A stretch of DNA of 64,000 bases from Eledone cirrhosa (taxonomy: Eukaryota). This document shows positions 12,016 through 62,655 of this stretch, piece after piece. Below the pieces are notes generated by a model that did no database searches, was not told the origin of the DNA, and saw nothing but the letters and a program-made list of their open reading frames with translations. The position numbers were made by a program, and so were the translations under genes. Each line of letters opens with the position of its first letter. The first letter of the stretch is position 1. Where the stretch lies: the NCBI GenBank assembly GCA_964016885.1, contig OZ024743.1, forward strand, positions 363,878,001 to 363,942,000. Reading direction: 5' to 3'.

Positions 12016-13110
12016 ATCAATGGTGATGTGGATAGGCTATACTTCTCACGCAAGGAAAGTGGCCGGGGTCTAAAATCCATATTAACAACATATGAGAGCC
12101 GGATAGTAACACTGAAGTAACACCTTCAACAGAGGAAAAAGGTTGGCAACCATCTTGCCCAGGTTTATGAGCATGAAAAAAAAGTATCATTAGAATAGCG
12201 ACTGATCTGGAGGAGAGATATGGAATAAAGCCTGATATAAATCTCTCACCCAGAGAAATCGGAAGATCCAATTCAATGTTCAAACAAGATGAAAAAATTG
12301 ACCAATTTACAGAAAAAGTTGTGCATGGATACTTGAGACGTAAAACACAGATCATAGAGGGGATAAACCACTCAAAAAGCCTGGCATGGAGTTCCGACAA
12401 GTTTATGACATCAAACCTTGAGGGATATCTCTATGCAATACAGGAACAAGAACTCCCTACCAAATATCTGCTGCACAAAAGGGGAGGGCCAGCAGCTGAC
12501 AATAAATGTAGGCTATGTAAAACAAAGATCGAGGATGTAAGCCACATTGTTGCCAGCTGCGAAAGAATGTCATCTCGCTACTACCTCCTCATGAGACACG
12601 ATGGGATAGCTAGAACCATCTGGAACGCACTTCGGAAAACAAAATTAAAAACAAACGAGGAAGAATATATTGAGACAGATGGCACTAAGGAATACTGGTG
12701 GAACCTGAAAATAAAAACTGCCACCAAATTAAAGCACAACCGGCCTGATATTGTTGTTTGGGACCACACATTGAAAACGTGTTCTGTTGTGGAGATCAGC
12801 TGCCCACTTGATGTAAACGTTGTCAGAAAAATACAGGAGAAGGAGGACATCTACGGACCATTGATTATTGGAGCTACAGGTTATATACCAACCCGCTTGG
12901 ACCAAAGTATGACTGAACTTGGATTTGCGGACAAAAAGCGCAGCTCCCTAATTCATAGTCTACAAATGGCTGCGATAGCTGGCACCTTCAAAATTTGCAA
13001 AACATTCTTGCGATTCAAGGGATGACAATTTCTTTTCTTTTACAACCTTGCCACCAGGAAGGTGGCCGGTCAAAAAAATATACTCGAAATTAAGAGAAAG
13101 AGAAAACAAG
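12016..13110 (+). mobile_element. R4/Dong-like family A, 5'-truncated copy between (TACA)n tracts
   Basis: GRGL motif, CRLC...HIVASC zinc knuckle, RHD, RPDIVVWD...VEISCP (PD-(D/E)xK-type RLE), ends KTFLRFKG; 3'UTR runs into CATACATACA. Confidence 0.9.
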
Positions 13111-13135
13111 CATACATACATACATACATACACAC

Positions 13136-13640
13136 ACAATTTTGATAGGTTTCGGTCAGTATTCACTCAGACCCTATCTATCTTAACGGCACCACTTGGC
13201 GAAGTCTTTCAAATCATGTTTCATATTTCAGGCATATTTGTACACACTAGCCCATTCAAGTAAGGAATTCATGTTGGCAGGAAAATATTCGGGAGTGGGT
13301 GGTTTATCTGGAATTTGGGGGAGGAATTTATCCAGGAACCGTTTGAATGTTATGAGATTTTTTATGAATTTCGATGATATTAAAGCACGGCCAATTGAAT
13401 TGAAGTGGTTCTGTTGTAATGTTATGTGATGCCGGCTCCTTTTTTGTAGTGGATGGTCGGCACGGATTTCAAGCCTTCAGCAAATTTTAAAGCTGATGCC
13501 AACATCGTTTGAGCAATATTGATAGAATATTTTCCACACCGTAAAAATGATGTAACGCTTGCAGTGTTGTTGGAGAGGACAACATTTGAGCTTTTCACGC
13601 CAATCCGAGTATCAAGGCCTCTCAAACCGTCTATCATTTT
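13136..13640 (-). mobile_element. Degenerate L2/CR1-group LINE 3' end
   Basis: Minus frame gives QIPDKPPTPEY...NMNSLLEWA, resembling the C-terminus of L2/Crack-like ORF2. Confidence 0.45.
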
Positions 13641-14185: not shown

Positions 14186-17100
14186 AGTCAACGCGATCAG
14201 TAGCATATTTTGGCGTGGGAGACTATTTATTAAATTTAAGATGAATACTATCTCCGACAGTACTGCCACAACTACAGTCATGTTGAATAACTGGTTATTC
14301 TTCTAACTATATCTTCTGAAGACACCTTTTATTCGAATTCATAGAGATATCCGACTAAATACATAATTCATTTTTACAAGGATTTGCTACAAACAGCATG
14401 GCTGAACACAACATCAACAACAAAATTAAGGAAGTATCGAAGACAAACAACAAGAAAGGTAAACAAACTTTATTCAGTTGTAGCTACAGGAGAAACCGAA
14501 ATTATAAATCGCATTTCTCTTGGGGTTGCGAACTTAATAATGATTTATTTAATTGTTATAGAATGGCAAAAAAACAACCCTCCATTGGCTATATGAATAG
14601 AATGAAGTTATACTGGGACGAAATGCACCCAGAGCTAAATTATTTCACAGCGAAACAATTACGCCAACAAGCGACGTTTATTGAACGTAAAAATAAGATA
14701 AATAGTATTAATTGTAAGTCCCCACAACAAACATGGGATCAACAACATGTGCTACAGATCGCCATGCTACTAGACTTCCTAGCAGCCAGGTCGAACAGCG
14801 CCTTGAAACAACTATGCCTGTAAGAAAATTGACACCACCTGTACCATCTAAGTCTACCTCGAATGTTGGGGAAAACACTATCGATAATAATAATAATCGA
14901 AGAAATAATAATAATATCGAAGATATTTGACACCACGTGTACCATCCGAGTCTACCTCGACTGTTGTGGAAAATACTATCGATAATGATAATAATCAAAA
15001 GTATAAACAATTGAAAATTTCCCTCATCCGAATCTTCCTGAGAGAAATTAATTCATGTATAAATATCTCTCTTGTTGAACGTATTGAAACGACAATGTTT
15101 AATAAAAAAACAAATAATGAAATATTACGTGTTATTGACCAAATAAGGGATGAATATTTACGACGGATAAAAACCCAACATTTTGGCAAATCAACGCCTG
15201 TTTATATTCCTTAGCAACGACAGTGAAGCATTATCTTGGTGATAGCAGAAATATTAACAAGAACAGAACAACACCAAAAATACCATCATATATAACTAAA
15301 ATAGAAAAAAAGATTGCTGACCTACGAAAAACCATAGGATACGCGACATTGCTACTTACATGCAAACAAACACAAAAAAACCTCACTCCTCACCAACAAA
15401 GAGTGAAAAATAAAATAGAGACGATGTTTGGTAATAGTAGAACCAGAACTCTTCAATATAAGCTGATCACCCTCAAACAAGAATTGAGAGCTGTTAGCGA
15501 AAAACGCCGATACCTGAAGAAGGTAGATGAGAGAAAAGTGCCTAATAAAAGATTCAGACGAAACCGAACATCAGTCTATAGAGATATGAAGAACAAAATA
15601 ATAAGTGTTACTGAGGCCCCATCCCAGAAAGACATAGATTCCTTTTGGAGCAAAATATGGGGTGAAAAGAAGAATTTCAACCCAGATGCAGTGTGGCTAA
15701 GAGAAATCCGAAAGAACTGTTGCAAAAACATACGAAATAAGTGAGGGTACCCTTGAGAATGTGATAGGAAAACTCCAATATAAGAAAACACCAGGAAGAG
15801 ACATGATTGTCGATTACTGGTACAAAAAAACCGATATTCTATCGGATGTATCTTACTCACCTCTACCAACAAGTTCTTAAGGGAGATACACTTATACCAG
15901 AATGGTTGACATTAGCACAAATATTACTGGTCCCCAAGAACAAAGACACCCACTTGGCAAAAAACTACCGACCCATTGCATGTCAGAACCTGATGTATAA
16001 GATGTATACAGCCTGTCTGAACCTATTCCTCCAAGATCACTGTCAAAATAATAACATCATCACAGATGAACAAGCAGCTGGAAAGAAAGGGGTTTGGGGA
16101 TGTGCTGAACAACTCCTAATCAACAGAACTGCGATGTTGGAGGTGCAACAACTTAGGAAGAATATGGCTACAGTCTGGCTGGACTACATGAAAGCTTTCG
16201 ATTTTGTTCCCCACTCTTGGATGATAGAGGCCCTCCAACTTGCTAAAGTCCCAGACATTATTGTCAGAGCCATAGAGAGGCTGTCTTATTCTTGGGCTAC
16301 TATCCTAAGGTTAAAAACAGAGAAGGAGGACTCTATTTTCACTGATAAAATAAAATATCGCAGGGGTATATTTCAGGAGGACAGTCTCTTTGTGATATTA
16401 TTCATCTTGTCATTAAACCCCTTCTGCTCAAGAAATGTGAGGGATACATCATGGCTCACAGGAGGACAGAAATACGGACCTAACCCATAATTTCTTTGTG
16501 GATGATCTGAAACTCTATGCCAAGAACATGGATGGGATGAAGAAAAATCTTGACTTGGTTACAACGTTCTCAAAGGATATAGGAATGGAGTTTGGCCAAG
16601 ATAAATGCTCATACATGACTGTAAAGCGGGGAAAAACAACCCAATCTATCAACATTGTCATCAATGGCCTAACGGTTTCACCAATATCTGATGAGGACTG
16701 CTACAGATACCTGGGGATAGATGACAACATATCCTATAATGGTATCTGTAATAAGGAACGCGTAACCAGGGAATACTACACCCTATTAAGAAAGATTTGG
16801 TCATCGGAAAACAAAACAGTGGCTCACAAGGTGTTTGCTGCGCCTGTCCTAACAACAACGTTTGGAATACTCAATTGGACGATAGACGAAATCCGAGCAG
16901 TTGAAGTTGGAACTCGAAAAATACTAAACAACACCGGAAACTTCCACATCAACAGTTACATAGACCGCCTTTTCTTGAAACGTAAGCAGAGAGCAGAGGC
17001 CTAACATCAGTCCAGACGGCATTTGAATGTCGCATCATATCTCTCCGGCAACATCTAAGAACCTGGAAGCGTAGGAGCCCGTCTCTCAAGAAAGTTTATC

Positions 17101-18274
17101 TGTATGAAACAGATAAGATCATGAGAGTTGGGAAGGAACTCCTCGAGAGATATTCCCTGTGTGATAATCAAAAACTTACACCCAGGGAAGTCGCTCAGCA
17201 GTATCGCAGTGAATCCATGGATGAAAAACTGCATGCGTATCAGCAAAAAATCATGCATGGATATGTTGCCAGGAAGCTCCAGAGTGAGAGTAATATAGGT
17301 AAGGAAAGTAGTCTATCTTGGACCAAAAACCGCTATATTGGCTCCCACTTTGATGGATACGCTTTTGCAATCCAAGAACAGGAGTTTAACACGAAATACC
17401 TGATTCACAAAAGAGATAGGGATGCAGGCAAAACACCTAGATGTGATAACAAGTGCAGACTCAGTAGAACTAACATCGAGGATATCACCCATGTCATGAG
17501 CAGCAGTCCAAATATGTCATCGCGGTACTATCTACCTATGAGGCATGATGTAGTGGCCAAAACACTGTACAATGCATTTCGTAAAAAAGATAGCTCCGAT
17601 AATAAACACATTAAAAGCTACAGCAATGTGGAAGACATCCATGTACATAATATGAAAGAGTACTGGTGGAATGTTCCCAATAAAATGCAGGCATAACAGA
17701 CCAGATATTATGATATGGGACAGGGAGAAGAAAGCATGCACAGTAGTGGAAATTAGCTGCCCAGCAGATGCCAATATAATATCAACGATTAGCAAAAAGG
17801 AGAATATTTATGCAGAACTGATGAGAAATCTGCAGATACTCCACCCTGATTACACCTTCAGATTTATGCCTGTGATTATTGGGGCACTGGGGTATGTTAG
17901 TAACTGCCTTAATACAAATCTTGAGAAGCTAGGCTTCACAGGAACAGAAAGAACACAACTAGTTAGGAAATTACAAGTACAATCCATTAATGGAACAGTA
18001 AAAATATGTAAAATATTCCAAACATTTTGCATCTAATAACTGCATATACACATGTACAGATACAAAGCATATGCACATGCACACATACAACTCAAAACAT
18101 ACACATCCACACATACAATAAGATCCATATCTACACATGCATGCATGCAGACATGCATACATAGCTACCTAGTTGATGTTGTGTACATTCCAATGAGAGA
18201 AACTTGTAACTATGTTAGAAACCGACTCTCTCTCTATTAGGAAAAATTTGTGAAATTATAAAACCAGAAGAAGA
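14186..18274 (+). mobile_element. R4/Dong-like family B, apparently full-length, frameshifted
   Basis: ORF pieces 14398-18036: N-terminal W..ELNNDLFNCY...GYMNRMKLYWDEMHP domain, RT (NYRPIAC, WLDYMKAFD, GIFQ, FFVDDLK), zinc knuckle region, RHD, RPDIMIWD..VEISCP; (TACA)n on both sides. Confidence 0.9.
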
Positions 18275-18367
18275 TACATACATACATACATACATACATA
18301 CATACATACATACATACATACATACATACATACATACATACATACATACATACATACATACATACAT

Positions 18368-21752: not shown

Positions 21753-24700
21753 TTACAGATACGTACTCAGAGTAGGCCCATTCACTCGAGCCATTCTTGC
21801 TTCTCTCACCTATCTTTCAACAAAATGCTGGGAAGAGAGCACTTCCCTCTCTACCCTGATTTTCCTTTTCAAATGAAATTTGAAAAAGTTAATCAGGGCA
21901 TCACCGAAGAGGTAAGTGCTCGTCTTCAGCCCTTTCAAACGTGTCCACCATACTATCTCTTTCGCCATGGCCACCAGACAGATAAAAACTGCCTGCCCTT
22001 CCCGGCTAAAGGAAGAGGGCGGGGCAATCCTCACAATGGACTCAGATGATAGCCGGATCCGACCTACACGCGACAGCAGGTGTTCGACATAAACCCACAA
22101 GTCAGCAATTTTCGGACACTGGACGAGTGCGTGCAGGACGGTTTCGTCGCCCTGCGCGTATCTCGGACATGCCCGGCTGACGGCACCTCCATGCCTGTAG
22201 AGTTTATCCCGAACTGGCAAGGCTCCTCGGTAGCACTGCCAGGCCAGAGATTTCTGGAAGTTGTCCATAGGTCCCGGCCCGAAAGTTCTTCCGAAGAGAT
22301 TGGCTAGTTGATTTTCGTCGACGCCTAGAGTTTCCACAACGTCGTCGCTCTTCACCTCCACTAATCCTCTATAGAACGCCGAGGTGGAGTTTCCACTGAT
22401 CACATTGCCCGATTGGTCGAGGGCTGTGAGCGCCTGAAGACATTCCAGTCTCCAGGCGCTCCCTCTCGGTCTTCGCTTGACCCAGGACTGCAGCTCCGTC
22501 AAGGAAACGAGCTGGGGAAAAAACGTGTCTAGCAAACGGCATCCACACCTGATCACCGTCGAGGAAGAGGTGGAGATGTCGTAGCCTGAGCGCGTGTCTG
22601 CGTATCATCAGCCACGGCATGCCCAGCCCTCCACGTAGCGGGTGTTGACAGCAGATGGACCGCCTGACCATCGGAGCGCGTCCCTTCCACAAAAAGCGAA
22701 AGAGCAAACGCTCCAGCGCAGTCAGGCGGGGCTTAGGACAAGGTACGACGGTTAGGCGGTAGCAGATGACAGACGCGATGTACGCGTTATCCACCTCCAC
22801 TCGACCTTTCAGGGATATCTTCCGCTCCGCCCATTTCTGGGTGAGAGAAGCCACCCTGCTCGTCACCTCGTCCCAGTTTTTGTCCGTCTGGAGGTCCGGA
22901 CCGAACCAGACCCCTAGCAACCGTCCGACGACGCTGTTGGACGGCATGGACCTGCCTCTCCTGGTGCCGAGCTGCAGGCCTACTGACTTTTCCTGGTTGA
23001 TCATTGCTCCTGTCACCGCTTCGTATTCTCTTAGTGTAGTGCCGATCGCCTCGATGTGTTTGGCGTTCGACACCACTACGGTGACATCGTCCGCATATGC
23101 TGACACGGATCTTCCGCATCCTAGTTCGCGCGGGACGCCCCTCAACGTCTCCAGTTTGTGCAGTAATGGCTCGAGAGTCAATACGTACAAGAGGGACGAG
23201 AGTGGACATCCTTGGCGGACCGAGCGCATGATGTTGAACGGTTCCGAAAGGTGACCGTTCACTCTCACCACAGAGCAGATGTCGCTGTGCATGGCAGCGA
23301 TCCAGCCTCTGAAGACGGGCCCAAAGCAAGCCGCCCTCAGGACTGCCGCTAGGTAACGATGGTCGACCCTATCGAAAGCTTTCGACTGATCTAAATTGAT
23401 CAAGGACCCACCCGTGCCAGGTTCCATAGCTACCCTCTCTACGATGTATCGCATGAGGTGGAGGTTGTCGTGGATGGAACTGTCGGGAATGGCGCATGTC
23501 TGCGCTTCTCCCACCAGACCACCAACGACAAGCGCCAACCTCTTTGCTAGCACCTTGGCCAAAATCTTGAACTCTGTGTTTAGCAGAGTTATGGGCCTGA
23601 AATTATCTATGTTATCTCCCTTGTTCGGATCCTTTCTCAGCAGTGCCACCGCTCCTCGGCTCACAGAGCTGGGAATTCTCCCGTTCTGTTGCCAGTTGCA
23701 GTAGACGTCCGCCAAGAGGCCTCCGAACAAGTCTGGCAACTGTACGTAAAGTTCATAGGGCAGACCATCCAAATCATGCGATTTACCCCTTGTGCAGCCA
23801 GTCATTGCCTCCCGTACTTCAGCGGCTGTTATCGGCTTTTCGCAACACTCCGCCTCAGTGACCAAGAGCCGCGGCAGTCCGTCGAGGTAGACACTAAAGT
23901 CCATCCCTCGACCCGGCCCACCGCTGCCCCCGAACAGCTGAGCGAAGTGTCGCTGAAAAGCTTCACACATTTGCCCGGGATCGAGTAGCATGCGCCCGTC
24001 GTGGTCCACCAAAGACCGGATCGTGGCTTTGTCTCCACGACGCGCCTCTGCTACTCGGGCCCATTGAACGGCTTTCGTCCCCTCGTGTCTGAGAGCACGC
24101 ACCCTAGCTCTGACAACGCAGCCTTCGTTCTTTGCATTGAAGAATTGGTCAAGGGCCAATTTCGCCGCAAGCACGTCGGTCGCGATGCCTTTGCTAAGCG
24201 CCTCATCTAATTTTCTAACTAGTTCTCCCTCTGCTCTATTTTTCTCTATTGCTAAAGCCTTACTAAACCTAATGGATTCTATTCTAATCGCTCTTTTCAG
24301 AGCAAACCACCACTTGTTGTTGACGATGGCCCCCGTCAACTCCCGCTTAACCAGTTCGCTAATCCGGTCTCTGTAGGCCTTGCGCGCTGGTAAGGACGCG
24401 TTTGGCTTCCAGTAGCCGGGTCCTCGTCTATGAAGCCTATCTAAGTCAAGCACACAGATCACGAATTTGTGGTCCGTGTAGCTGACAATCTTGAATTGTG
24501 GACAGCTTATGCTAGACCTATCTATTTCCCTACAAAATACTCTATCTAGATATGATCTGGATGGCCCTATGCGATTTTTCCAAGTCCACATTGGCACATT
24601 CGGGAAATTCAAAACGCCTGAGCAGGTTGGTGAGGCTCTTGCACCCCCCCCCCCCCCCTATCCGCTAATCTCACACAGTCCCAGCGTGCATCTAAGATCC

Positions 24701-25137
24701 CGTTCCAGTCGCCCACTAACACTAAAGAGCGGGACGTTCCAAGAAAGGTCTCCAGACGCCGGAAGAAATCAGGCCGCCCTGCTCCTGTCGGGGCATAGAC
24801 GGCCACTAGCCTGAAAGCTTGCCCGTCTCCGCTGGTCACGTCCAGCACCACCAACTTACCCTCTGGGTCCAGGAAGATGGCCCGTATGGCGAGATCCAAA
24901 CCTCTCCGAAAAAGCACAGCAACTCCCCCCCCCCCCCACCGATCCAGGACGGCTGGGAGATGCGTACACATCGTAGCGGCCGAAGATCGATGCGAAGGCC
25001 CGTGCTTCGGAGATTCTGGTCTCGCTGATGGCCACTACATCTATGTTTAGTGATCTGAGGTCGTTGAGCAGGTGACCCTGCTTCCATAACGACCCCAAGC
25101 CACGCGCATTTATGCTGCCTATTCTGAGTGAGGTCAT
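21753..25137 (-). pseudogene. Tx1 ORF2 (AP endonuclease, reverse transcriptase, C-terminal zinc finger), disrupted
   Basis: SINARGL, ISET, GDWN, LDR, TDH; FRPITLLN, DQSKAFDRV, RQGCPLS, YADD; frameshifts at G runs and small deletions relative to copy 2. Confidence 0.9.
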
Positions 25138-25172
25138 GTTTAAAATAGAGTGGAAAAGATGGGAAAGACCAC

Positions 25173-27288
25173 TTACCGTACTTTTTGTAGACGAAGGATG
25201 GTTTGTCCACCCTTTTCACTTGATCGTCCCTTCGGCTGGTCGTCGGCTCTTCTATGAGTATGTCCGAATATACTCTCCGGTTGAGAGTCCCTCGTAGGTC
25301 TCTGAAATCGCCAACTGCGTTGGGTAATTTCGTTTTGATGTTTGTGTATTGTTTCTGTGCTATTTTTAGCAGTCTTATGTTCGTTGGCGTTTTGATTGGT
25401 CTTGGTATTATGTAGTCGTGCTGTGAAAGGTCTGTGTGTTCAATTATGTAAGTCATTAGTTTCTTGTTGTGTGTATTTATTGCCGTGCATTTGTTTTTCT
25501 GGGGGTGGGGTGTGGTTCTGCTATTTTCTTGTCGTTGTTGCTGGGTGTGTGTGTTTTGTTGTTGTGTTTGCGATGTTGGTGCTTGTGGTGGTGGTGTTGA
25601 AGGTGTTGCTGTTGTTGGCGGTGGGGTTGTCGCCGGTGGTGATGGTGGTGCTAGTGTGGGTGGTGATGGTGTTGGTGGTGTTGCTGCTGTGAGTCTCTTT
25701 GCAGTAGCCTTTACCCTTTTTTCATTTCTTTCATCCCTTTTCGAAGGCGACGATGCGCTGCTTCTGCGTTTGTGCCTTCTTACGACCTTTTGCCATCCCT
25801 CTCCCACCTCACACTCCATGTCTGATTCTGTGAGGTCGGAGAGGGGTACCAGCTCCACTCTTTCACTTGTTGTTGTTGGTGATGTTTGCAGTGGAGTCTC
25901 TGTTGCAGCTGCATTTGGTATTACTGTTGTTGTTGTTAATACTTCCACTGCTGCTGCTGTTCTTGATTTCCGTGGCGTGGGTATGTGTGCCACAGACCTA
26001 TCGTTCCTGGTTGCCGCTGGTCCTGTTGCTGGTAGCTGTGGAGCCGGTTTCGGAAGGAGGGGGGTTTCTCCTTTCTCAGGGTCTTCTCGTTGCAGAAGGC
26101 CCTGAGGTGAGTCTTCGATCCACAGCGAAAGCATTTCGGGCGTTTGCCCTCAACACTTATGGGCAGTTGAGTGCCGTTATCGAAGTCTATCACATCCGGG
26201 ATAGCTTCGATGCACTCCTGGTTGGTTTGGATTAACATCTCAATGGAGGTGCCGACCCAATCTTCTCTTACTTTTTTCTGTACTTGCAGTACAGTTGTTT
26301 TATCCTCGATTCCGACGAGGACAGACGCGGCCAGCCAAGAAGGGGCCATCCCGGGGGGTACGTGGGTCAGTTTGACCCTCACAATTTTTTGCCCACAGTA
26401 GGAGGGCACCAACACCATTTCCTCGCTCCTTAGGGTCACTAAGGATTGAGCCTTTGCCTCCTGGGGTGTGGCAAAAAGCACGTCTACGGTGGCATATTTC
26501 TTGCCTCGGGTGATGTTCGTTTTCCGCTGCCACACAGAGCCTAAGGCTTTTTGTATTTGAGCCTCTGTGGCTCTTTCAACCCTACGGGATTTTGTGCTTA
26601 CTGTACGGTACGTGACCGTACAGTGCTGTTGGGTATCGAAAAAATTTTCGGCTGCCTTGAAGATTGCTCGGTGTCCGGTTTTCGTCACCATCTTCTTCGC
26701 TTCCTCTAATTCCTCATTTGTTATGAGGATGGTTTCCAGGTTCTTTGCGATACCTGCAAACGTGATTGGTTTTTCTTTGCTGCTGTTGCTGTTATTGTTG
26801 TTGTCGTCAGAGCTGCTGTTACTTTTGTTGTTGCTGCAGGTACTACGACTACTGCCGCCGCCGCTGTTGCTGTGGTTGTTGTTGTTGTTGCTGCTGCTGC
26901 TGCTGTGGTTGTTGCTGTTGCTGCTAATGCTGTTGTTGTTTATGCTGCTGCTGATGGTGTTGCGGCTGCTACTGTTGTTTTCCTTGTCACTGTTGCTGCT
27001 GCTGCTGTTATTACGGCTGCTATTGCTATTATTCTTGACGTCAGATGAATGAAATGGGTTTTCGTATTTCCCGCACACCTTTTTCGTCGTTGTCGTCGTG
27101 GAGAAATGTTGCACGCTTTCTACGTGATTTTTCTTTACTGGCGTCGCTTGCGAAAGAGAAGGGAGGGAGAGAGACACATTTAGAGAAGGGAGGGAGAGAG
27201 ACAATCTTCTCTCGGCTGTAGTGACGATTGAGGAAGAAGAAGACGGAATGAGTGGGAGTGACCTATGAAAATTCTTTTTCGTAACCAT
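25173..27288 (-). pseudogene. Tx1 ORF1 (putative RNA-binding domain plus one CCHC knuckle), frameshifted
   Basis: CFRCGSKTHLRAFC; continues in the frame of ORF 24836-26134; true end SEKGGQTILRLQKVR* matches SEKNGKAVLPLREVR* of copy 2. Confidence 0.8.
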
Positions 27289-27668
27289 GTTTTTTTTTTT
27301 GTTTAAAATAAATATTGGGCACAAAACCCCAATAAGCGGTTATTTAACCCCGAAGGGCCAAATAACGGGCAGAAAGACCCCTCTCACGAGGAGGAGGGTG
27401 TTTTTGTCTACAATTTGGTTAAAGTTTTAAACAATTTACAATTGTTATAGCGGTCAAAATTTACAATACCTTACAGAGCCGAGCCTCCGTCAACCATAGC
27501 ATTCAATAATAATAATAAGTTGACGGGACTAGCATAAGTTTCCCTGCTAGTACAGGTTGCACATCAGCGTACTCAATAAGGTAATGCTATGTAAAAATCC
27601 CAGAGTAGACACAAAGTTATTTACTTCAAAACAACACACGTAAATGGGTACCTTAAATCTATATATTA

Positions 27669-30688: not shown

Positions 30689-31513
<825 letters not shown>

Positions 31514-31521
31514 TATATATT

Positions 31522-31600
<79 letters not shown>

Positions 31601-31603
<3 letters not shown>

Positions 31604-32096
31604 TAAACGGAATAGAAAATGCTGACAAATTGTTCACAGTTGAAAAATGGTTTAATTAGGAATAAAAGAGTATTAGTGATTGTATGGGTTAGTATTCAGT
31701 TGTGGTTTTAACTTTTTAAGTTTTTACCGGTTGCGCATTTCTAAATGCTTTTCAAAAATAATTTTGAGATAGAGTGTCCGTGCTGTTTGCTCTGATCTGA
31801 TTAGTTTTGGGAATTCTACCTGTTTTTATGTTAAAAAAATGGCTCCAGCGTTATTTTTGTGTTGCAAAAATGCTTGTGGTCAAAACAATTTTGATTGGTC
31901 GGTAGAGGTCATGTGAATGTAAAAAGTTGATTTTGCGCTAAGACTGTTTTTATGTTAAAATGTTAGAAAAGTGGCTCCAGCAAAAATTATTGGTCAAAAC
32001 AATTTTGATTGGTCGGTAGAGGTCATGTGGATAAAAAATTGGTTTTGCGCCAAGATTGAGAAATGACTCTTTCACAACAAATATGTGTGTGTGTGT

Positions 32097-32138: not shown

Positions 32139-32943
32139 TAGTAGTAGTAGTAGTAAGGTGTTCGATGCTGCGACTATAGCCAGCAGCGATGTGTGTCAAA
32201 TGGCTATTAAGATAAGTGTGTGTGTGTGTGTGTACATACACACAGCAGAGTCATTCGAAGGTCAAAAGATATTTTTCAGCTTTTGTCTTATACGGAGAAG
32301 TGCGTGTGTGTGTGTGTGTGTATAAGTCTCTTTGTATGTTGATGTACGCGTGTGTATGTGTTTGTGTATATATGTGTGGGGGGGGGGGGGGACCAGTATT
32401 TTTTTCCCCCTGGTAAAATGGTGTACATTATTCGATTTTTTCAGTAAAATCGGTTCTCTTAATAGAACATCAACAATCTTAACAATAAAAGGAGTGAAAT
32501 GATATTCACTATATATATATACACACACACACAAAATTGTTTTGACCAATAATTTTTGCTGGAGCCACTTTTCTAACATTTTAACATAAAAACAGTCTTA
32601 GCGCAAAATCAACTTTTTACATTCACATGACCTCTACTGACCAATCAAAATTGTTTTGACCACAAGCATTTTTGCAACACAAAAATAACGCTGGAGCCAT
32701 TTTTTTAACATAAAAACAGGTAGAATTCCCAAAACTAATCAGATCAGAGCAAACAGCACGGACACTCTATCTCAAAATTATTTTTGAAAAGCATTTAGAA
32801 ATGCGCAACCGGTAAAAACTTAAAAACTTAAAACCAACCACAGCTGAATACTAACCCATACAATCACTAATACTCTTTTATTCCTAATTAAACCATTTTT
32901 CAACTGTGAACAATTTGTCAGCATTTTCTATTCCGTTTACCAA
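31601..32943. repeat. Element with ~400-bp inverted repeats around a microsatellite-rich core
   Basis: TGGTAAACGGAATAGAAAATGCTGAC... (31601-32005) reverse-complemented at about 32535-32943; (TA)n flanks. Confidence 0.9.
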
Positions 32944-32978
32944 TATATAATAACTTGTGTGTTACACCTCTATTCTTT

Positions 32979-33010
<32 letters not shown>

Positions 33011-33736
33011 ACTATATATATATATATAACTATATATATATATATATAGGTGTAGGTGTGTGAGTGTGTGTGTGTGTATGTGTATGTTTGCGTATATATA
33101 TATAAATTAAAATGAATAATTAGAAATAGGACTATCCATCATCAGTGATCTACTAATCATCATAGGTATTTCTTCGCATTAAAAACCATATACCTCAGGC
33201 TAGCGCGAACAATAACTAAAATAAGTTATTGGGATAAAAAGAATTGGGTGGAGAAAGAGAGACAGGTAAACAAACATGAAAGGTGAGGCAACGTAAAGAG
33301 AGGAAAAAATGAGAAAATCATGTCAATGATTCATTTGAACATAAGAACTTGCGAATATTGACGAGAAGACGAGAGAAGACTAGCAGAGGGGGTGAATGAA
33401 AGTAAGAGGGAGAAGGAGAGAGAAGGGGGAAAGAGAAAGAGGATAGCAGTAAGGGAAGAGAACAAGACAGGTCACAGCGAAGGGGAAAAACATATTGGAA
33501 TGAAACATGGCGTGTTGTGTTGTTGCAAATGTGATATACAAATTAAAATTATAGCATACATACATGCACACATTTTTATGTGCGTCTGAGTGTATACATA
33601 TGTATATTCTTGGTGTATGGATATAAATATATAATATAATATATATATATATAACGAAGGAGTTGTGGGTAAGGAACCAGATGGACCATAACGCACCAGA
33701 GTACTCAATACTTAGGGTAGTAGAGTGGGTAATAGA

Positions 33737-39051: not shown

Positions 39052-39196
39052 CATACATACATACATACATACATACATACATACATGCATGCATGCATGC
39101 ATGCATGCATGCATGCATGCATACATACATACATACATACATACATACATACATACATACATACATACATACATACATACATACATACGTACGTAC

Positions 39197-41170
39197 ATTT
39201 GGCCAAAGTCCCACAACCACTAGTAGCTCCTTTTGAACGCCAAACCAAGAACTGGTACACTAATTTGATCTTTAGGGGTGAGAAGGAGCAAATTAAGACT
39301 GATACAATACACTACCAGAAAGGCATCTTTCAGGGTGATAGCTTATCAGTGCTGCTCTTCGTCCTCTCACTAAATCCACTATCATACATGCTCACAAAAC
39401 AAAGTGGTCATAGAAGTGGGTCCAGAAGTATCTACAATCTTTTCTTTGTTGATGACCTGAAGTTAAATGGACCAAATATCAACAATATTAAAAAACAATT
39501 GGACCTCATTACACAATTTTCTGCAAACATCAGAATGAAATTTGGTGATTCCAAAAGTGCATATTTGAGAGTAAAACGTGGAAGGGTTGTGCCCTCCTCT
39601 GGAAATCTAGAGATGAACGGCTTGACAATTCAACCTCTACAGTCAGGTGACAACTACAGATATCTTGGACAGGATGAGAATGTCAGATATGATGGACCCA
39701 TAAATAAGGAGAGAACCAGAACAAAATACCTCAGGAGAGTAAAGAAAATGTGGTCATCAGAACTATCAGTGTACAACAAATACATTGCCCATAATACTTA
39801 TGCCGTGCCAATCCTAACGCCAACATTTGGTCTACTGAACTGGCCATTGGAAGAACTAAGTGAGATGGATGTAAGAACTCGGAAGCTTCTAAGAGTTACT
39901 GGAAACTTTAACATCAATGGTGATGTGGATAGGCTATACTTCTCACGCAAGAAAGTGGCTGTGGTCTAAATTCCATATTAACATCATACGATGTTAATAG
40001 AAAAATAAAGTCAGCAACCATCTTGCCCAGGTTTATGAGCATGAAGAAAATAATTGTTTCTACTTTTGGCACAAGGCCAGCAATTACCAAGTACATTACT
40101 GGTACTTTATTTTATCGACCCCGTAAGGATTAAAGGCAAAGTCAACTTCGGCGGGATTTGAACTCAGACCGTAAAGGGACGTAACTACGCTGGAAAGCAT
40201 GGCGTTGAAGAAAATAATATCATTAGGATCACCACTGATCTGGAAGAGAGATATGGAATAAAGCCTGATATAAATCTCTCTCCCAGGGAAATTGGAAGAT
40301 CCTATTCAATCTTCGAACAAGATAGAAAAAATGGACCAATTTATAGAGAAAGTTATGCATTGGTACATGAGACGAAAAACACCGACCATAATCATTCAAA
40401 AAGCCTGACAGAGAGTTCCGACAAATTTATGACATCCCGCCTTGAAGGATATCTCTATGCAATACAGAACAAGAAATCTCTACTAAATATCTACTACACA
40501 AAAGAAGAGGGCCATCAGTCGACAATAAATATAGGCTTTGTAAGACAAAGATCGAAGATGTTAGCCACATTGTTGCCAATTGCGAAAGAATGTCGCCTCG
40601 CCACTACCTCCCCATGGGACACGATGTAATAACTAGAACCATCTGGAGCGCACTTAATCAAACAAAATTAAAAACAAGTGAGGAGGAATAAGTTGAGATA
40701 GATGGCACTAAAGAATACTGGTGGAACCTGAAATAAAAACTGCGACCAAATTAAAGCACAACCGGCCTGATATTATTGTTTAGGACCACACATTGAAAAC
40801 GTGCTCTGTTGTGGAGATCAGCTGCCCACTTGGTGTCAATGTTTTAAGAAAAATACAAGAGAAGGAGGACATTTAGGGGGGGATTGATGAGGAGTTTGCA
40901 GATCCAGTGTCCAAGATACACTTTCAGCTTCATACCCATCATTATTGGAGCTACAGGTTATATACCAACCCGCTTGGACCAAAGTATAACTGAACTTGGA
41001 TTTGTGGACAAAGAGCGCAGCTCCCTAATTCATAGACTACAAATGGCTGCGATAGCTGGCACCTTCAAAATTTGCATAACATTCTTGCGATTCAAGGGAT
41101 GACAATTTCTTTTCTTTTACAAGAAGGTGGCCGGTAAAAAATGTACTCGAAATTAAGAGAAAGAGAAAAA
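39197..41170 (+). mobile_element. Family A 5'-truncated, degenerate copy
   Basis: LAKVPQPL..GIFQGDSLS..FFVDDLK..YRYLG..TFLRFKG; (TACA)n on both sides; interrupted by a SINE. Confidence 0.9.
40055..40205 (-). mobile_element. tRNA-SINE insertion with 13-bp TSD
   Basis: TSD TGAAGAAAATAAT at 40042-40054 and 40206-40218. Confidence 0.9.
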
Positions 41171-55608: not shown

Positions 55609-55816
55609 GGCGACCTACGTAGGAAATCGTATTATCGTGAGCTCCGCAAAGGTTTGTTATTTCCGTTTGTTTAAAAATTGCCATTTATGGAAAATTTTAT
55701 TGTAAACTGTTTATAAGCACACATACATTGTTTTCCGAAAAGGACACCCAAAAAGATTGGGGCCTTGTGCCCAAAATTTTAACTTTTATTATTATCCAAA
55801 AATTTCTTTGAAAAAA

Positions 55817-57815
55817 ATGGCTAATTCCCCTCTGCACGAAGCAGCTGAAAGCCTTCCTCACAAAATAACACCTCACACCGACACCACCATTGTAAATGTT
55901 ACTACGTTTGCCAACACAAAAAAAAATATAAGCAGTAGCAATATTTTAAATTTGTCTCAGGCAGACATTCATTTCCCGCCATTACCAATGACTGCAGGTG
56001 TTAAACCCTCCACCACCACCACCACCGCAACAACCACCACCACCACCACCACCGCGACAACAGAAACAAAAGAAGAAAAAAATAAATTAACTCGTGACGT
56101 CGAAATGAAATCAAGCAAAATGGACTCTTCCCCACCAAAGACGACTGACGTCACAACCACCACAACTGAAAATAAAATTAATATTAACGATAGCAACAAC
56201 AACAACAATGACATTATAAAACCGACCCTCAGTTTCGCCATCGTAGCAAAACAATTCGAAGCGTTCACGGTAACCCAAGAAGATTTAGAAAATGCCAAAC
56301 AAATGGTAAAGAAAGATGGGTACAGGGTCAGCCTCACCCCCCCCCCCCCCCCCCCACCTAATAAAATGGAGCATCGGCGCCTGTGCACCGTGTCGTATAG
56401 AACAATAAATGCAAAATCGCGCCGAGTGGAACGGGCATCCGAGTCCCAAATCCAAAAAGCTTTGGGACATGTGTGGGCAAGAAAAACCCACATCAGACGT
56501 GGGCAAAAGTATGGAACCGTGGATGTGTTCTTTGAAACACCAGAGGAGGCTAGAGAACACTCCATGGCCCCATTAAAAAGTGACGACCTCACACTCGTCC
56601 CAAGCTATTGTGGCCAGAGACTCGTAAAGATCAGGGTGACCCACGTTCCACCGGCCATCGAAATTCCCTGGCTAATAGCAGCTGTCCTCACCGGCATCGA
56701 AGCCAACACGAAAATAATAGCAGTAGCAAAAGAAAAGCAGGAAAACTGGTCCGGATCTGGGATGGAGCTCCTGATCCAAGCGGACCAAAAAAGCATTGAG
56801 GAGATCCCAGAAGTAATAGACCTCACTGACGGCAGCCACCTCACGGTAATTGTCGAGGGCAGAAGACCTAGGTGTGTCGTTTGTGGTGAAGGAACCCACC
56901 TAAGGGCTTTCTGCCCTCAGGCTAAAAGGTTGAGGCCACCTCTCCTACCCACCCCAGTGACAAAACCATCAACACCACCAGTAGCAGAGATGGCAGCAAC
57001 AACTGTAGCAGCAACAACAGAAGCAACTATAACAGCAACAACCCCAGCAACAGTAGCAAAACCAACACCACTACCACCACCAGCAAAACCAACACCACCA
57101 CCACCCAACGCTTCAGAACTAGCACCAGCGCCTACACCCTCCACCACACCACAACCAAAACTAACGGCTGTGGAGGATTTTCCACTCCCCGGCCTATCAC
57201 AACTGGAGACAGATTGTGACGACGAGGAGTGGGAAACGATATCCGGAAGAAAAAAAAAGAAACCAAAAAAGAAAAAAATCTCTTCCTTCCCCCTCCAAAA
57301 ACAAAATACAGAGGGAAACAAATAAACTAAGAAACAAAAACGTTAGGACAGATATGCCACCATCCACACCAGCATCACCAACCCCATCAACCCAAACACC
57401 AACACCATCACCATCATTATCCCCAGCACCACCATCACCAACAACACAAAAGTCACCAAAATTCGAAACAGAAACAAACCCACAACAAACGCAAACAAAA
57501 CAAAACAACCAAAACGATACACACTACACAGCATTAAATTTGAACAACAAGCAATTATTACACTACATCCAACACAACACCAGCATCACAGAAAAAGACT
57601 ACACAACAACCCCAAAATTCACACCACCGCCACACATACAAATCACTCGCATCACACAGAAAACGTACATGACACTAAAACAAAAATTCCCCAAAGACAT
57701 CGGAGACTTCCGACAAGCACTCTCCAGGAGGATTTATAAGGACATCCTTCCTGAGGAGGCCACAAGCAGTGAAAAGAATGGAAAAGCCGTCCTTCCCCTA
57801 CGAGAAGTAAGATAA
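55817..57815 (+). CDS. Tx1 ORF1 (CCHC knuckle protein), one frameshift in the A-rich run near 57250-57280
   Basis: ORFs 55757-57325 and 57216-57815 are jointly colinear with copy 1 ORF1; CVVCGEGTHLRAFC. Confidence 0.8.
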
Positions 57816-57849: not shown

Positions 57850-60800
57850 ATGACCTCACTCAGAATAGGCAGCATAAATGCGCGTGGCTTGGGGTCGTCA
57901 TGGAAGCAGGGCCACCTGCTCAACGACCTCAGGTCACTAAACATAGATGTAGTGGCCATCAGCGAGACCAGAATCTCCGAAGCACAGGCTTTCGCACCGA
58001 TCTTCGGCGGCTACGATGTGTACGCATCTCCCAGCCGTCCGGGATCGGGGGGAGGAGTTGCTGTGCTTTTTCGGAGAGGTTTGGATCTTGCCATACGGGC
58101 CATCTTCCTGGACCCAGAAGGTAAGTTGGTGGTGCTGGACGTGACCAGCGGAGACGGGAAAGATTTCAGGTTAGTGGCCGTCTATGCCCCGACAGGAGCA
58201 GGGCGGCCTGATTTCTTCCGGCGTCTGGAGACCTTTCTTGGAACGTCCCGCTCTTTAGTGTTAGTGGGCGACTGGAACGGGATCTTAGATGCACGCTGGG
58301 ATTGTGTCGGATTAGTGGATAGGGAAGGAGGGTGCAAGAGTCTCACCAACCTGCTCAGACGTTTTGAACTGTCTGACAGGTACCGAATGGATTTCCCGAA
58401 TGTACCAATGTGGACTTGGACAAATCGCATAGGGTCATCCAGATCATATCTAGATAGAGTATTTTGTAGGGAAATAGATAGGTCTAGCATAGGCTGTCCA
58501 CAATTCAAGATAGTCAGCTACACGGACCACAAATTCGTGATCTGTGTGCTTGACTTAGATAGGCTTCATAGACGAGGACCCGGCTACTGGAAGCTAAACG
58601 CGTCCTTACCAGCGCGCAAGGCCTACAGAGACCGGATTAGCGAACTAGTTAAGCGGGCGTTGACGGGGGCCATCGTCAACAACAAGTGGTGGTTTGCTCT
58701 GAAAAGAGCAATTAGAATAGAGTCCATTAGGTTTAGTAAGACTTTAGCAATAGAGAAAAATAGAGCAGAGGGAGAATTAGTTAGAAAATTAGATGAGGCG
58801 CTTAGCAAAGGCATCGCGACCGACGTACTTGCGGCGAAATTGGCCCTTGACCAATTCTTCAATGCAAAGCACGAAGGCTGCGTTGTCAGAGCTAGGGTGC
58901 GTGCTCTCAGACACGAGGGGACGAAAGCCGTTCAATGGGCCCGAGTGGCGGAGGCGCGTCGTGGCAACAAAGCCACGATCCGGTCTTTGGTGGACCACGA
59001 CGGGCGCATGCTACTCGATCCCGGGCAAATGTGTGAAGCTTTTCAGCGACACTTCGCTCAACTGTTCGGGGGCAGTGGCGGGCCGGATCGAGGGATGGAC
59101 TTTAGTGTCTACCTCGACGGACTGCCGCGGCTTTCGGCCACTGAGGCGGAGTGTTGCGAAAAGCCGATAACAACCGCTGAAGTACGGGATGCAATGACTA
59201 GTTGCACAAGGGGCAAATCGCCTGGTTTGGATGGTCTGCCCTATGAACTTTACGTACAAATGCCAAACTTGTTCGGAGGCCTCTTGGCGGACGTCTACTG
59301 CAACTGGCAACAGAACGGGAGAATTCCCAGCTCTGTGAGCCGAGGAGCGGTGGCGCTGCTGAGAAAGGATCCGAACAAGGGGGATAACATAGATAATTTT
59401 AGGCCCATAACTCTGCTAAACACAGAGTTCAAGATTTTGGCCAAGGTGCTAGCAAAGAGGTTGGCGCTTGTCGTTGGTGGTCTGGTGGGAGAGGCACAGA
59501 CATGCGCCATTCCCGACAGATCCATCCACGACAACCTCCACCTCATGCGATACATCGTAGAGAGGGTAGCTAGGGAACCTGGCACGGGTGGGTCTTTGAT
59601 CAATTTAGATCAGTCGAAAGCCTTCGATAGGGTCGACCATCGTTACCTAGCGGCAGTCCTGAGGGCGGCTGGCTTTGGGCCCGTCTTCAGAGGCTGGATC
59701 GCTGCCATGCACAGCGACATCTGCTCTGTAGTGAGAGTGAACGGTCACCTTTCGGAACCGTTCAACATCATGCGCTCGGTCCGCCAAGGATGTCCCCTCT
59801 CGTCCCTATTGTACGTATTGACTCTCGAGCCATTACTGCACAAACTGGAGACGTTGAGGGGGGTCCCGCGCGAACTAGGATGCGGAAGATCCGTGTCAGC
59901 ATATGCCGACGATGTCACCGTAGTGGTGTCGAGCGCCAAACACATCGAGGCGATCGGCACTACACTAAGAGAATACGAAGCGGTGACAGGAGCAATGATC
60001 AACCAGGAAAAGTCAGTGGGCCTGCAGCTCGGCACCTGGAGAGGCAGGTCCATGCCGTCCAACAGCGTCGTCGGGCGCTGGACGGACGGACCGGTTAAAT
60101 TGCTAGGGGTCTGGTTCGGTCCAGACCTCCAGACGGACAAAAACTGGGACGAGGTGACGAGCAGGGTGGCTTCTCTCACCCAGAAATGGGCCGAGAGGAA
60201 GCTATCCCTGAAAGGTCGAGCGGAGGTGGCGAATGCGTACATCGCATCCGTCATCTACTACCGCCTGACCGTCGTACCTTGTCCTAAGCCCCGCCTGACT
60301 GCGCTGGAGCGTTTGCTCTTTCGCTTCTTGTGGAAGGGACGCGCTCCGATGTCAGGCGGTCCATCTGCTGTCAACACCCGCTACGTGGAGGGCTGGGCAT
60401 GCCGTGGCTGATGATGCGCAGACACGCGCTCAGGCTACGACATCTCCACCTCTTCCTCGACGGTGATCAGGTGTGGTCGCCGTTTGCAAGACACGTTTTT
60501 CCCCAGCTCGTCTCCTTGACGGAGCTGCAGTCCTGGGTCAAGCGAAGACCGAGAGGGAGCGCTTGGAGACTGGAATGTCTTCAGGCGCTCACAGCCCTCG
60601 ACCAATCGGGCAATGTGATCGGTGGAAACTCCACCTTGGCGTTCTATAGGGGATTAGTGGAGGGGAAGAGCGACGACGTACTTGGAGAAACTCTAGGCGT
60701 CGACGAAAATCAACTAGCCAATCTCTTCGGAAGGACTTTCGGGCCGGGGCCTATGGACAACTTCCAGAAATCCCTGGCCTGGCAGTGCTACCGAGGAGCT

Positions 60801-61268
60801 TTGCCAGTTCGGGATAAACTCTACAGGCATGGAGGTGCCGTCAGCCGGGCATGTCCGAGATGCGCGCAGGGCGACGAAACCGTCCTGCACGCACTCGTCC
60901 AGTGTCCGAGCATTGCTGACTTGTGGGTTTATGTCGAACACCTGCTGTCACGTGTAGGACCTATCCAGCTATCAGCTGAGTCCATCGTGAGGATTGCCCC
61001 GCCCCCTTCCTTTAGCCTGGAAGGGCAGGCAGTTTTTATCTGTCTGGTGGCCATGGCGAAAGAGATAGTATGGTGGACACGTTTGAAAGGGCTGAAGACG
61101 AGCACTTACCTCTTCGGTGATGCCCTGATTAACTTTTTCAAATTTCATTTGAAAAGGAAAATCAGGGTAGAGAGGGAAGTGCTCTCTTCCCAGCATTTTG
61201 TTGAAAGATGGGTGAGAGAAGCAAGTATGGCCCGAATGAATGGGCCTTCTCTGAGTATGTGTCTGTAA
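57850..61268 (+). CDS. Tx1 ORF2: AP endonuclease, reverse transcriptase, C-terminal zinc finger; 1-bp frameshift near 60350
   Basis: 853-aa ORF with APE and RT motifs (YADD) continuing into ORF 60330-61268 (GGLGMP, CPRC...ETVLHALVQC); copy 1 has the missing G (ATGGTCAGG). Confidence 0.92.
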
Positions 61269-61531
61269 ATTAAAGGTGGAAAACTGGGAGAGGGCACTTG
61301 CCCTGGTGGTCAGGGCCACTGTGGTCTTTTAATGGGCTTTCTCCACAAATGTCCCTTGGAAGTCTCCCCCCTATTGGGGAATTTTTTTTTTTTTTTTTTT
61401 TTTTTTTTCTTTGTTATTTTATTCCAACCTCTGTTTTTTTACACGCAGAAATGCCCATTTGTACCGTCCTGTATTGTCCTGTACTGTCCTTAATGTCTAC
61501 TTTATGTAAACCCTTGTGGTTAATAAAGAAA

Positions 61532-61575
<44 letters not shown>

Positions 61576-62655
61576 TTATATATATGTAGCTTTAAATAGA
61601 TTTCAAGCTATGAGAGCATAAGAACTGTCTATATGTTTATAAGAGGGAGTAAGGAGAAACAACCTCCGGGTGATGCCTCTGCATGAAAACTAAACAGGTT
61701 GGTGCTAACATAATGTAGTGTCTCGATTTAAAATAATAAATCAATCTTCCTAAGTATTTTGAAGTAAAACATACCAATTTCTGGATACCTGCAGATGAGC
61801 ACAGAAATGGAAATGTTCACTTATTGTTGCGAAACAGATTTGAGTTTTGAAATTTAAATTTGTCCGGGCATCACGGCTGTTGCCAATATGGATTTGTTTT
61901 TATTGATTTATTATTTTAAATCGAGACAGGCAAACTAATTTAATTGGTATTTTTCAATCTAGCTAACTTGGTCATTTGCAATACAAACACTTATATACTT
62001 GTATTAGTGTTTATCATATATTCATTTGTATATATATATATATATATTACTATATTTAGCTCTAGACTTAGCTATTGACCAGTTAATTTTATTGTTCATT
62101 TTTTGTCGATTCTATTAAATGATGAATAGCCCCTGTTTATTTTAACATGTCTATTGAGCACTCTTATTCGATATGTGTTTTTGCCACATTTTTCCGAATA
62201 TTTTTGCGGATATAAAGGTTATCTCCCTTGCTGAAATCCATGTGCGTATTTTTAGCCTGGGTCTTGTCTTTTCATCCATTCGGACGAAGCTCGTTGATGA
62301 AGTAACTCCAGTCCCCCGATTGCCTGTAAGTCTTATATTTTTATATGAGCTGATAGATGACGGTTTAAGGATTTACAGAAACCCAAGAAGCTAGATATTC
62401 CATCTCTCTAGTGGGTCCGGGTATGCATTTTACATTCATTTCATTTATTGATTTATTGATAATTTATCTGAGTGTCCCGAATCTTCCATATCGAACTTTT
62501 CGGTTATTTGGTTGATTGTAGACATATTCTACGTGTGACGGTATTTTAACGATAGTTATAGCTCTAATTTATTTGAATTATAGAGCCCTCTGCCGCTCAT
62601 CTCGAATTTTGTTTATCGTGAACTCGTGCGCCGATTTTTCGATACTCGATTATTC

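What the first reader, a model, noticed from the sequence alone, without database searches (positions are those of the whole stretch)
25138..27504. ORF1/5'UTR module swap between two Tx1 copies
Seen: from the ORF1 stop codon and spacer (TAAGTGGTCTTTCCCATCTTTTCCACTC) onward the two copies differ only by scattered changes. Upstream, the ORF1 core is only about half identical by eye with mostly conservative changes, and the linkers are unalignable. The 5'UTRs share only short motifs (TTGGGG..TTGTGCCCAA; ATTGTAAA.TGTTTA). Inference: recombination at the ORF1/ORF2 boundary lets one enzyme module pair with alternative promoter/ORF1 cassettes, possibly to escape host silencing.
Basis: partly seen in the sequence, partly recalled or inferred. 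Interest (0 to 1): 0.7.

Follow-up and report, generated by a model that had tools for sequence, protein, structure and literature searches.

The report
Hybrid LINE joined at splice site
One of two neighbouring jumping-gene copies belongs to a large hybrid family that carries the promoter and RNA-binding gene of an older family in front of the other copy's enzyme gene, and the join lies exactly on a splice-donor-like signal, so RNA splicing likely built it.

Summary
The swap is real, and both parents are in the genome. Copy A (27504-21442, minus) and copy B (55609-61579, plus) stand for two genome-wide subfamilies (over 2,000 matches each) of an (ATT)n-targeting L1/Tx1-type LINE. Their ORF2s differ by dS 0.10, while synonymous sites in the ORF1 core are saturated. 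An older family P carries A's 5'UTR and ORF1 on its own ORF2 (about 82% to A/B). Trees group A with P on ORF1 and with B on ORF2; both alternatives are rejected. The seam lies 43 bases upstream of the ORF1 stop, not at it. It is out of register and joins P's CAAG|GTAAGT donor-like site to B just after a CAG. Splicing of a P-B read-through RNA is my best guess (about 0.5). Against it: a weak acceptor, one extra G, no second donor-joined hybrid and no RNA evidence. Escape from silencing is untested. Such swaps are known in mouse L1, and splice-born chimeras in SVA_F1 and mRNA-L1 insertions. Earlier notes of this scan reported the swap, and a seam on the donor-like site, on other DNA of this genome.

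The parts
27505..27518 (-). (ATT)n run in front of copy A (target microsatellite)
   Evidence: sequence; 52 of 52 recognisable 5' ends among 60 sampled copies follow (ATT)n
27289..27504 (-). 5'UTR of copy A, derived from family P
   Evidence: 13 of 20 P loci carry the same 5' head; all 20 align to the old-A 5' module at 87-95%
27310..27333 (-). 5'UTR motif shared with copy B (55756-55779); predicted hairpin before the ORF1 start
   Evidence: local match beats 500 of 500 shuffles; predicted hairpins in A, C, C2 and D (z -2.7 to -6.3), weak in B (z -0.6)
25173..27288 (-). ORF1 of copy A in the family frame (about 697 aa when intact); this copy has a frameshift near 26050-26075, a 25-base deletion before the seam and a 1-base deletion after it
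26083..26772 (-). ORF1 core: two predicted RRM-like domains and one CX2CX4HX4C knuckle; about 54% identical to B, synonymous sites saturated
   Evidence: model of the B core pLDDT 92 matches tandem-RRM proteins; knuckle read from the sequence
25212..25225 (-). the seam, between 25219 and 25218: P-type sequence ending CAAG joined to B-type sequence starting TGAAAAG
   Evidence: 2,089 exact genomic matches of the A seam pattern
25173..25218 (-). last 43 bases of ORF1 plus stop, derived from family B; repeats a segment homologous to P's own ORF1 end
25171..25177 (-). GGTAAGT donor-like motif at the ORF1 stop, kept in families A, B, C, C2, D and P in two reading frames
25138..25172 (-). pyrimidine-rich spacer between ORF1 and ORF2, shared with B
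   Evidence: 35 of 37 bases match with the stop included
21753..25137 (-). ORF2 of copy A (endonuclease, reverse transcriptase, zinc finger), broken by frameshifts and a stop
   Evidence: intact family form 1,139 aa
21442..21752 (-). 3'UTR and (ATT)n tail of copy A
55609..55816 (+). 5'UTR of copy B, preceded by (ATT)n at 55577-55608
55817..57815 (+). ORF1 of copy B in the family frame; frameshift near 57200-57250 in this copy
57767..57769 (+). CAG in front of the point (57770) where A-type elements join B sequence; acceptor-like, with a poor pyrimidine tract
   Evidence: sequence
57850..61268 (+). ORF2 of copy B, one frameshift near 60350
61269..61579 (+). 3'UTR and (ATT)n tail of copy B

Best explanation
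Family A is a hybrid LINE that carries the 5'UTR and ORF1 of an older family P in front of the last 43 bases of ORF1, the spacer, ORF2 and the 3'UTR of family B, and the join was likely made by RNA splicing at P's donor-like site. Shown: the two parents, the direction and the position of the seam. Inferred: these elements insert into (ATT)n, their own tails included, so P-B head-to-tail arrays form. A transcript from P's promoter would run on into B, and a splice from P's CAAG|GTAAGT to the CAG 43 bases before B's ORF1 stop (in cis, or in trans between two RNAs) would remove P's ORF2 and most of B's ORF1. B's ORF2 protein would then copy the joined RNA into the genome. A and B have since amplified side by side and still exchange ORF2 tracts.
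For: Hybrid: ORF1 tree ((A,P),D),B against ORF2 tree (P,D),(A,B), supports 99-100. AU tests reject A+B on ORF1 (p 0.0006) and A+P on ORF2 (p 1e-6). Old A and old B differ at 10 of 3,420 ORF2 majority states. Twenty A copies with the oldest end type carry the P state at a median 35 of 47 diagnostic ORF1 sites and the young-A state at 9. Splice-like join: the seam is pinned to a shared AG that is both the exon end of a consensus donor in P (22 of 30 loci read CAAGGTAAGTG) and the end of a CAG in B. It is out of register by about 15 codons, unlike a homologous crossover. The donor motif is kept across six groups in two frames. P is directly followed by a B head in 2 of 20 P loci, of which 14 had a recognisable tail. 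A two-step intermediate has no exact copy in the genome. Precedents: SVA_F1 (PMC4859970, passage) and exon-L1 chimeras ending at donors (PMC13174262, passages).
Against: It is one event, noticed after the fact. The acceptor has a poor pyrimidine tract and upstream AGs. A has one more G than B eight bases after the seam (2,089 matches with it, 4 without), which a splice does not explain. No other hybrid joined at a donor turned up in 30 of 49 B donor-variant loci, 34 of 34 P/D/A variant loci or 30 of 40 acceptor-variant loci. P has a second GGTAAG 175 bases upstream, so donor-like sites are not unique there. One copy (L331) reads GT-AAAAGG at the seam. The P/D swap is in register inside ORF2 with no splice signature seen. 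Use of the donor has not been seen in any RNA.
Confidence: 0.5

Rival explanations
1. Same hybrid, but made by the reverse transcriptase switching from a B RNA to a P RNA at a two-base AG microhomology; the match to the donor site is chance.
For: Template switching is a proposed route for mouse L1 recombinants (PMC3600994, section 11). P and old A/B overlap in age (P 2.3-8.6%, old A and B 2.1-4.2% from their group majority). Other exchanges here carry no splice signature. A slip near the join could add the extra G. AG is common in this stretch of B (14 in 140 bases).
Against: The join is out of register although an in-register homologous segment lies next to it. My rough estimate is about 3 in 110 for landing on P's donor cut by chance within the tolerated stretch; this is not a formal test and was made after the fact.
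Confidence: 0.33
2. The donor fixed the P-side break but no true acceptor was used: a released 5' exon, free after the first splicing step, was captured by a template jump or by RNA ligation to a 5'-truncated B RNA.
For: It explains an exact donor-side break together with a weak acceptor. RNA ligation and template switching are the two routes named for U6-L1 chimeras (PMC13174262, passages).
Against: The B side still follows a CAG. Nothing here tests for free 5' exons.
Confidence: 0.1
3. Two steps: a crossover at the 5-base AGTGA shared by P and B, then a 5-base deletion between two AAG repeats; or a 5'-truncated B inserted at the end of a genomic P ORF1.
For: AGTGA is present in both parents. 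Deletions between short repeats are frequent here. L331 keeps GT at the seam.
Against: No exact copy of the intermediate exists in the genome. These elements insert into (ATT)n (52 of 52), which this site is not.
Confidence: 0.06
4. No recombination: ORF1 and the 5'UTR evolved much faster than ORF2, or one copy is an assembly chimera.
For: The ORF1 linkers are low-complexity and change fast.
Against: Synonymous sites are saturated in ORF1 but at 0.10 in ORF2, with dN below dS. The parent P exists. There are thousands of copies of each type, and independent contigs bridge the seam.
Confidence: 0.01

Closest known systems
Recombinant mouse L1 families L1MdTf and L1MdGf, and 5'UTR recruitment (PMC3600994; passages and section 11 read)
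   Same: A younger 3' enzyme module joined to another family's 5' end and ORF1; lineages with non-homologous 5'UTRs active at the same time; further exchange within ORF2.
   Different: The mouse breakpoints described lie inside ORF2, ORF1 or near the 3' end. Here the ORF1s are only about 54% identical with saturated dS, and the join is out of register on a donor-like site. Splicing is not among the three mechanisms listed in that section.
SVA_F1 (MAST2 exon spliced into SVA; PMC4859970, passage) and mRNA-exon/L1 chimeras (PMC13174262, passages)
   Same: A new retroelement 5' end gained at a splice donor, joined to an acceptor inside a retroelement and then retrotransposed.
   Different: There the donor belongs to a host gene, and the products are non-autonomous or few. 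Here the donor-like site belongs to a LINE, the join replaces the whole ORF1, and the product is a two-ORF family with over 2,000 copies. Splicing is inferred here, not observed.
Microsatellite-targeting Tx1-clade LINEs Kibi (TC)n, Koshi (TTC)n and crocodilian Tx1 families (PMC4494074, PMC3812793; passages); L1-Tx1 families of Octopus vulgaris (PMC13282606, passages)
   Same: Two ORFs, APE endonuclease plus RT, insertion into one microsatellite.
   Different: The target here is (ATT)n/(TAA)n. No named Tx1 reference was on hand for a tree. The passages seen do not describe ORF1 exchange.
Reticulate ORF1 evolution in CR1 and L2 (PMC4120745; abstract and passages)
   Same: Whole ORF1s move between LINE lineages. 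The ORF1 here fits their type I (RRM followed by a CCHC knuckle).
   Different: Those transfers are ancient and inferred from trees. Here both parents and the junction are still readable.

Membership tests
L1 group of non-LTR retrotransposons | ORF2 with N-terminal APE endonuclease, RT and C-terminal zinc finger, closest to L1 ORF2p | tested here: met
   Pfam Exo_endo_phos, RVT_1 and zf-RVT; best solved relative human L1 ORF2p, E 1e-53, against R2 at 1e-20
L1 group of non-LTR retrotransposons | Separate ORF1 with RNA-binding domains | tested here: met
   Predicted model (pLDDT 92) matches tandem-RRM proteins at E 6e-5 but with low TM-scores of about 0.3; a CX2CX4HX4C knuckle is in the sequence; 10 of 69 aligned members hit zf-CCHC
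Tx1 clade | Target-sequence preference | tested here: met
   52 of 52 recognisable 5' ends among 60 sampled copies follow (ATT)n
Tx1 clade | RT phylogeny inside the Tx1 clade | not testable with these tools
Recombinant LINE families (mouse Tf/Gf type) | Trees disagree on the two sides of a breakpoint and both parents can be named | tested here: met
Splice-born retroelement subfamilies (SVA_F1 type) | 5' piece ends exactly at a consensus splice donor | tested here: met
   P reads CAAG|GTAAGT and A reads CAAG|TGAAAAG
Splice-born retroelement subfamilies (SVA_F1 type) | 3' piece starts at a splice acceptor | tested here: inconclusive
   CAG is present, but the pyrimidine tract is poor and AGs lie upstream; no splice-site scoring model was available
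Splice-born retroelement subfamilies (SVA_F1 type) | The donor is used in RNA | not testable with these tools
   No run on record as RNA was listed

The most novel reading that the evidence does not exclude
These LINEs keep a working splice donor at the end of ORF1 and pile up head to tail in (ATT)n repeats, so the host spliceosome can cut the promoter-ORF1 module off one element and paste it onto the next element's ORF2. That founded an autonomous family of over 2,000 copies and let P's 5' module outlive its own enzyme gene: splicing as a route of module exchange between LINE families.
Probability: 0.4. Interest if true: 0.75.

Novelty: new variant of a known kind. Interest (0 to 1): 0.5.

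Why it matters
How LINEs gain new 5' ends and ORF1s is usually inferred from trees, and the mechanisms listed for mouse L1 are DNA recombination, heteroduplex formation and template switching. Here both parents, the direction, the order of events and the junction base can be read in one genome. If splicing made the join, it adds a fourth route that can be tested with a minigene and with RNA reads. It also shows that ORF1 proteins about 54% identical can each go with the same ORF2, and that classifying such families by ORF2 alone would merge two lineages. If the join was a template switch, this is a clean but ordinary case of a known process.

Tried and rejected
No RNA holder was listed for the junction. 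Contigs of runs of unrecorded kind showed no joint at either donor in the tables printed (the table was cut), which says nothing about splicing in RNA. The search for spliced retrocopies or further donor-joined hybrids found only point changes and small deletions. The idea that the seam without the extra G is the ancestral form was dropped: there are only 4 such copies, one of them of the young type, as many as B copies with a chance extra G. Exact ORF1 motifs did not find the parent (60 of 60 loci carried the A/B ORF2); a degenerate knuckle pattern and a seam pattern did. The word-based protein search found no ORF1 relative; the profile search found 359. The weak Pfam MBD hit is below its cut-off and the model gives RRM folds instead. 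The single-sequence fold was poor (pLDDT 61), and its wide search gave Z 7.5 at best. A second wide fold search was not finished and was not collected. No parent for B's own 5' module was looked for beyond. Literature searches listed no paper on an autonomous LINE family made by splicing between two LINEs; they are word searches of open papers only, and no supplements were read.

Full report
What is in the window. Two full-length LINE copies lie in opposite orientation: A at 27504-21442 (minus) and B at 55609-61579 (plus), each between (ATT)n runs. They align at 93.8% from 25220 to the tail. The ORF1 cores are 50% identical over 240 aa. ORF2 has endonuclease, RT and zinc-finger domains, and its closest solved relative is human L1 ORF2p. 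The ORF1 core folds, in a model built on 69 sequences (pLDDT 92), like tandem RRM proteins, followed by a CCHC knuckle read from the sequence. Both window copies are broken by frameshifts. Four of the five ORF1 relatives I looked up carry names from Octopus or Argonauta, so the host is probably an octopod. The Tx1 label fits the target preference, but I could not test it on a tree.

Two subfamilies, not an assembly error. The ORF2 start matches 4,493 places in the 3.0-Gb genome. I took 60 of the first 100 listed places, all on contig C1: 21 have A-type and 39 B-type upstream sequence, none another type. ORF1 motifs match 2,504 (A) and 2,327 (B) places, and the first 30 loci of each carry the shared ORF2. 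Contigs of three public runs of unrecorded kind bridge the A seam without a joint. Six of 100 full-length loci are A copies with both ORFs open, and seven B copies have a whole ORF2. The youngest copies I picked lie 0.1-0.8% from their group majority in both types, so both spread until recently.

Between near-intact A and B copies (four pairs per ORF), ORF2 has dS 0.096-0.100 and dN 0.013-0.017. The ORF1 core has 75-81% synonymous differences, which is saturation, and dN 0.30-0.36. Fast ORF1 evolution since the ORF2 split cannot give this. In an ORF2 tree (82 of 102 rows kept, 20 dropped for gaps or low identity) a young A ladder and a young B ladder rise from an older pool in which A and B types are mixed. 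Eight old A and eight old B copies differ at 10 of 3,420 majority states. Painting 131 diagnostic sites shows later mosaics, for example L124, which switches from A to B states in mid-ORF2.

The parent. A degenerate knuckle pattern found further families: D (ORF1 core about 55-66% to A and 54-56% to B, ORF2 mostly 81-86% aa) and C/C2 (ORF1 about 32%, ORF2 about 74%). The end of A's ORF1 reads D-like up to ..VPSPDDQ and then B-like for 15 codons, and those two segments are homologous to each other. A pattern for A's sequence continuing with GT matched 92 places. Of the first 30 loci, 29 are a family P and one is D. P has A-type ORF1 (mostly 86-92% to young A; upstream present in 27 of 29), ends ORF1 with CAAG GTAAG TGA, and carries an ORF2 mostly 84-90% like D's and 79-85% like A/B. 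Four-fold site distances are 0.12-0.16 (A-P) and 0.71-0.78 (A-B) in ORF1, but 0.33-0.34 (A-P) and 0.07-0.08 (A-B) in ORF2. Trees on 22 chosen copies give ((A,P),D),B for ORF1 and (P,D),(A,B) for ORF2 bases 400-2000; AU tests reject the crossed groupings, with one long-branch row and one gappy row left out. Twenty of 48 A copies with the oldest end type carry the P state at a median 35 of 47 ORF1 sites, one at 44. P copies are on average older (2.3-8.6% from their majority, n 20) than old A or B (2.1-4.2%); the P sample was picked by an exact pattern and the old A and B sets by tree position. So P's 5' module moved onto B's enzyme module, and I saw no young P copy among the 20.

The seam. P reads ..GACGATCAAG|GTAAGTGA, B reads ..CACAAGCAG|TGAAAAGGATGG and A reads ..GACGATCAAG|TGAAAAGGGATGG. 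In the window this is 25219|25218 in A and 57769|57770 in B, 43 bases before the stop. The join is confined to a shared AG. By established splice-site consensus (my knowledge), AAG|GTAAGT is a near-perfect U1 site and CAG| an acceptor end. GGTAAGT sits at the ORF1 end in A, B, C, C2, D and P, as Gly-Lys-stop in C, D and P and as Arg-stop in A and B, which suggests a constraint on the RNA. The substrate for a read-through splice exists: 16 of 52 5' ends follow another element's tail, 11 of 54 3' ends are followed by a family head, and P is followed directly by B in 2 of 20 loci; those particular arrays may be younger than A. An intermediate for a two-step route has no exact match, and one odd copy (L331) keeps GT.

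What counts against splicing. The acceptor context is poor. A has an extra G eight bases after the seam in 2,089 matches against 4 without; it restores B's frame for the last codons but needs a separate change. No other donor-joined hybrid was found in 30 of 49, 34 of 34 and 30 of 40 variant loci. P has a second GGTAAG 175 bases upstream. A second swap, P against D, is in register: 48 differences in ORF2 bases 1-360, 2 in bases 361-720, with ORF1 four-fold distance 0.43. So recombination without a splice signature also happens in this group. I put the splice route at about 0.5, a plain template switch at 0.33 and capture of a released exon at 0.1.

Silencing. Nothing here tests it. The swap leaves 3.7 kb of RNA about 97% shared between young A and B, so silencing guided by sequence would likely still reach both. 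A different promoter could matter for transcription; mouse L1 lineages coexist when their promoters are non-homologous (PMC3600994, abstract passage).

Comparison and verdict. Recombinant families and 5' recruitment are described for mouse L1 (PMC3600994, passages and section 11), and whole-ORF1 transfer for CR1 and L2 (PMC4120745, abstract and passages). Splice-born chimeras are described for SVA_F1 (PMC4859970, passage) and for gene exons joined to L1 (PMC13174262, passages). Microsatellite-targeting Tx1 families are described in PMC4494074 and PMC3812793 (passages), and L1-Tx1 families are active in Octopus vulgaris (PMC13282606, passages). Nine word searches listed no LINE-to-LINE splice that founded an autonomous family; closed journals and supplements were not seen. 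Notes of this scan on other DNA of the same genome already report the swap, a seam on the donor-like site and the conserved motif. My reading was written down before I saw them, and they are not independent evidence. The swap is certain and of a known kind; the splice-like seam with both parents in hand is the new and still unproven part.

Noticed in passing
L261-L266 (family D) against L332-L351 (family P): A second module swap: P and D differ in ORF1 (four-fold distance 0.43) and in the first 350 bases of ORF2, then are nearly identical. D's first 300 ORF2 bases are closer to B than P's are.
   Followed up: partly
window 25171-25177 (-) and 57811-57817 (+): GGTAAGT at the ORF1 stop in all six groups, in two frames; in window copy B it is mutated to GATAAGT. 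In A and B a splice from it to the CTCAG early in ORF2 would fuse the ORFs in frame; no such retrocopy was among 30 of 49 B variant loci.
   Followed up: partly
window 27310-27333 (-) and 55756-55779 (+); L258, L266, L268: Each family has a predicted hairpin shortly before the ORF1 start, with different sequence; strong in A, C, C2 and D, weak in B (mononucleotide shuffles).
   Followed up: partly
window 25222-25235 (-): A 25-base deletion between two GACGAT repeats just before the seam recurs in several A copies, window copy A among them.
   Followed up: no
G000:C1:55427330-55453278 and other places: Runs of up to five ORF2 starts spaced about 6-7 kb apart: head-to-tail arrays, often mixing families.
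   Followed up: partly
one search hits (B-type ORF1): Most of the 150 best B-type ORF1 matches lie in open frames of about 300-540 aa, few in full-length ones; in the copies I read the breaks fall at poly-C and poly-A runs. Slippage or assembly error was not told apart.
   Followed up: no
old B copies, e.g. L169, L175, L183, L184: Old B-type 5' modules are more diverse (four-fold 0.14) than their ORF2s (0.08), as if one ORF2 spread across several B-type fronts.
   Followed up: no
window 12014-13136, 14398-18367, 39194-41239, 41236-44057, 46983-48974: Fragments of another RT-bearing LINE family, stacked in (CATA)n repeats; the C-terminal motif looks like a restriction-like endonuclease of R4/Dong type (recalled, not tested).
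   Followed up: no
window 49316-52780: A 44-base tandem array of about 78 copies that leaves two frames open for about 1,200 codons.
   Followed up: no
window 31512-32007 and 32532-33038: An inverted pair of about 500 bases at 94% identity between (TA)n runs, possibly a small foldback element.
   Followed up: no
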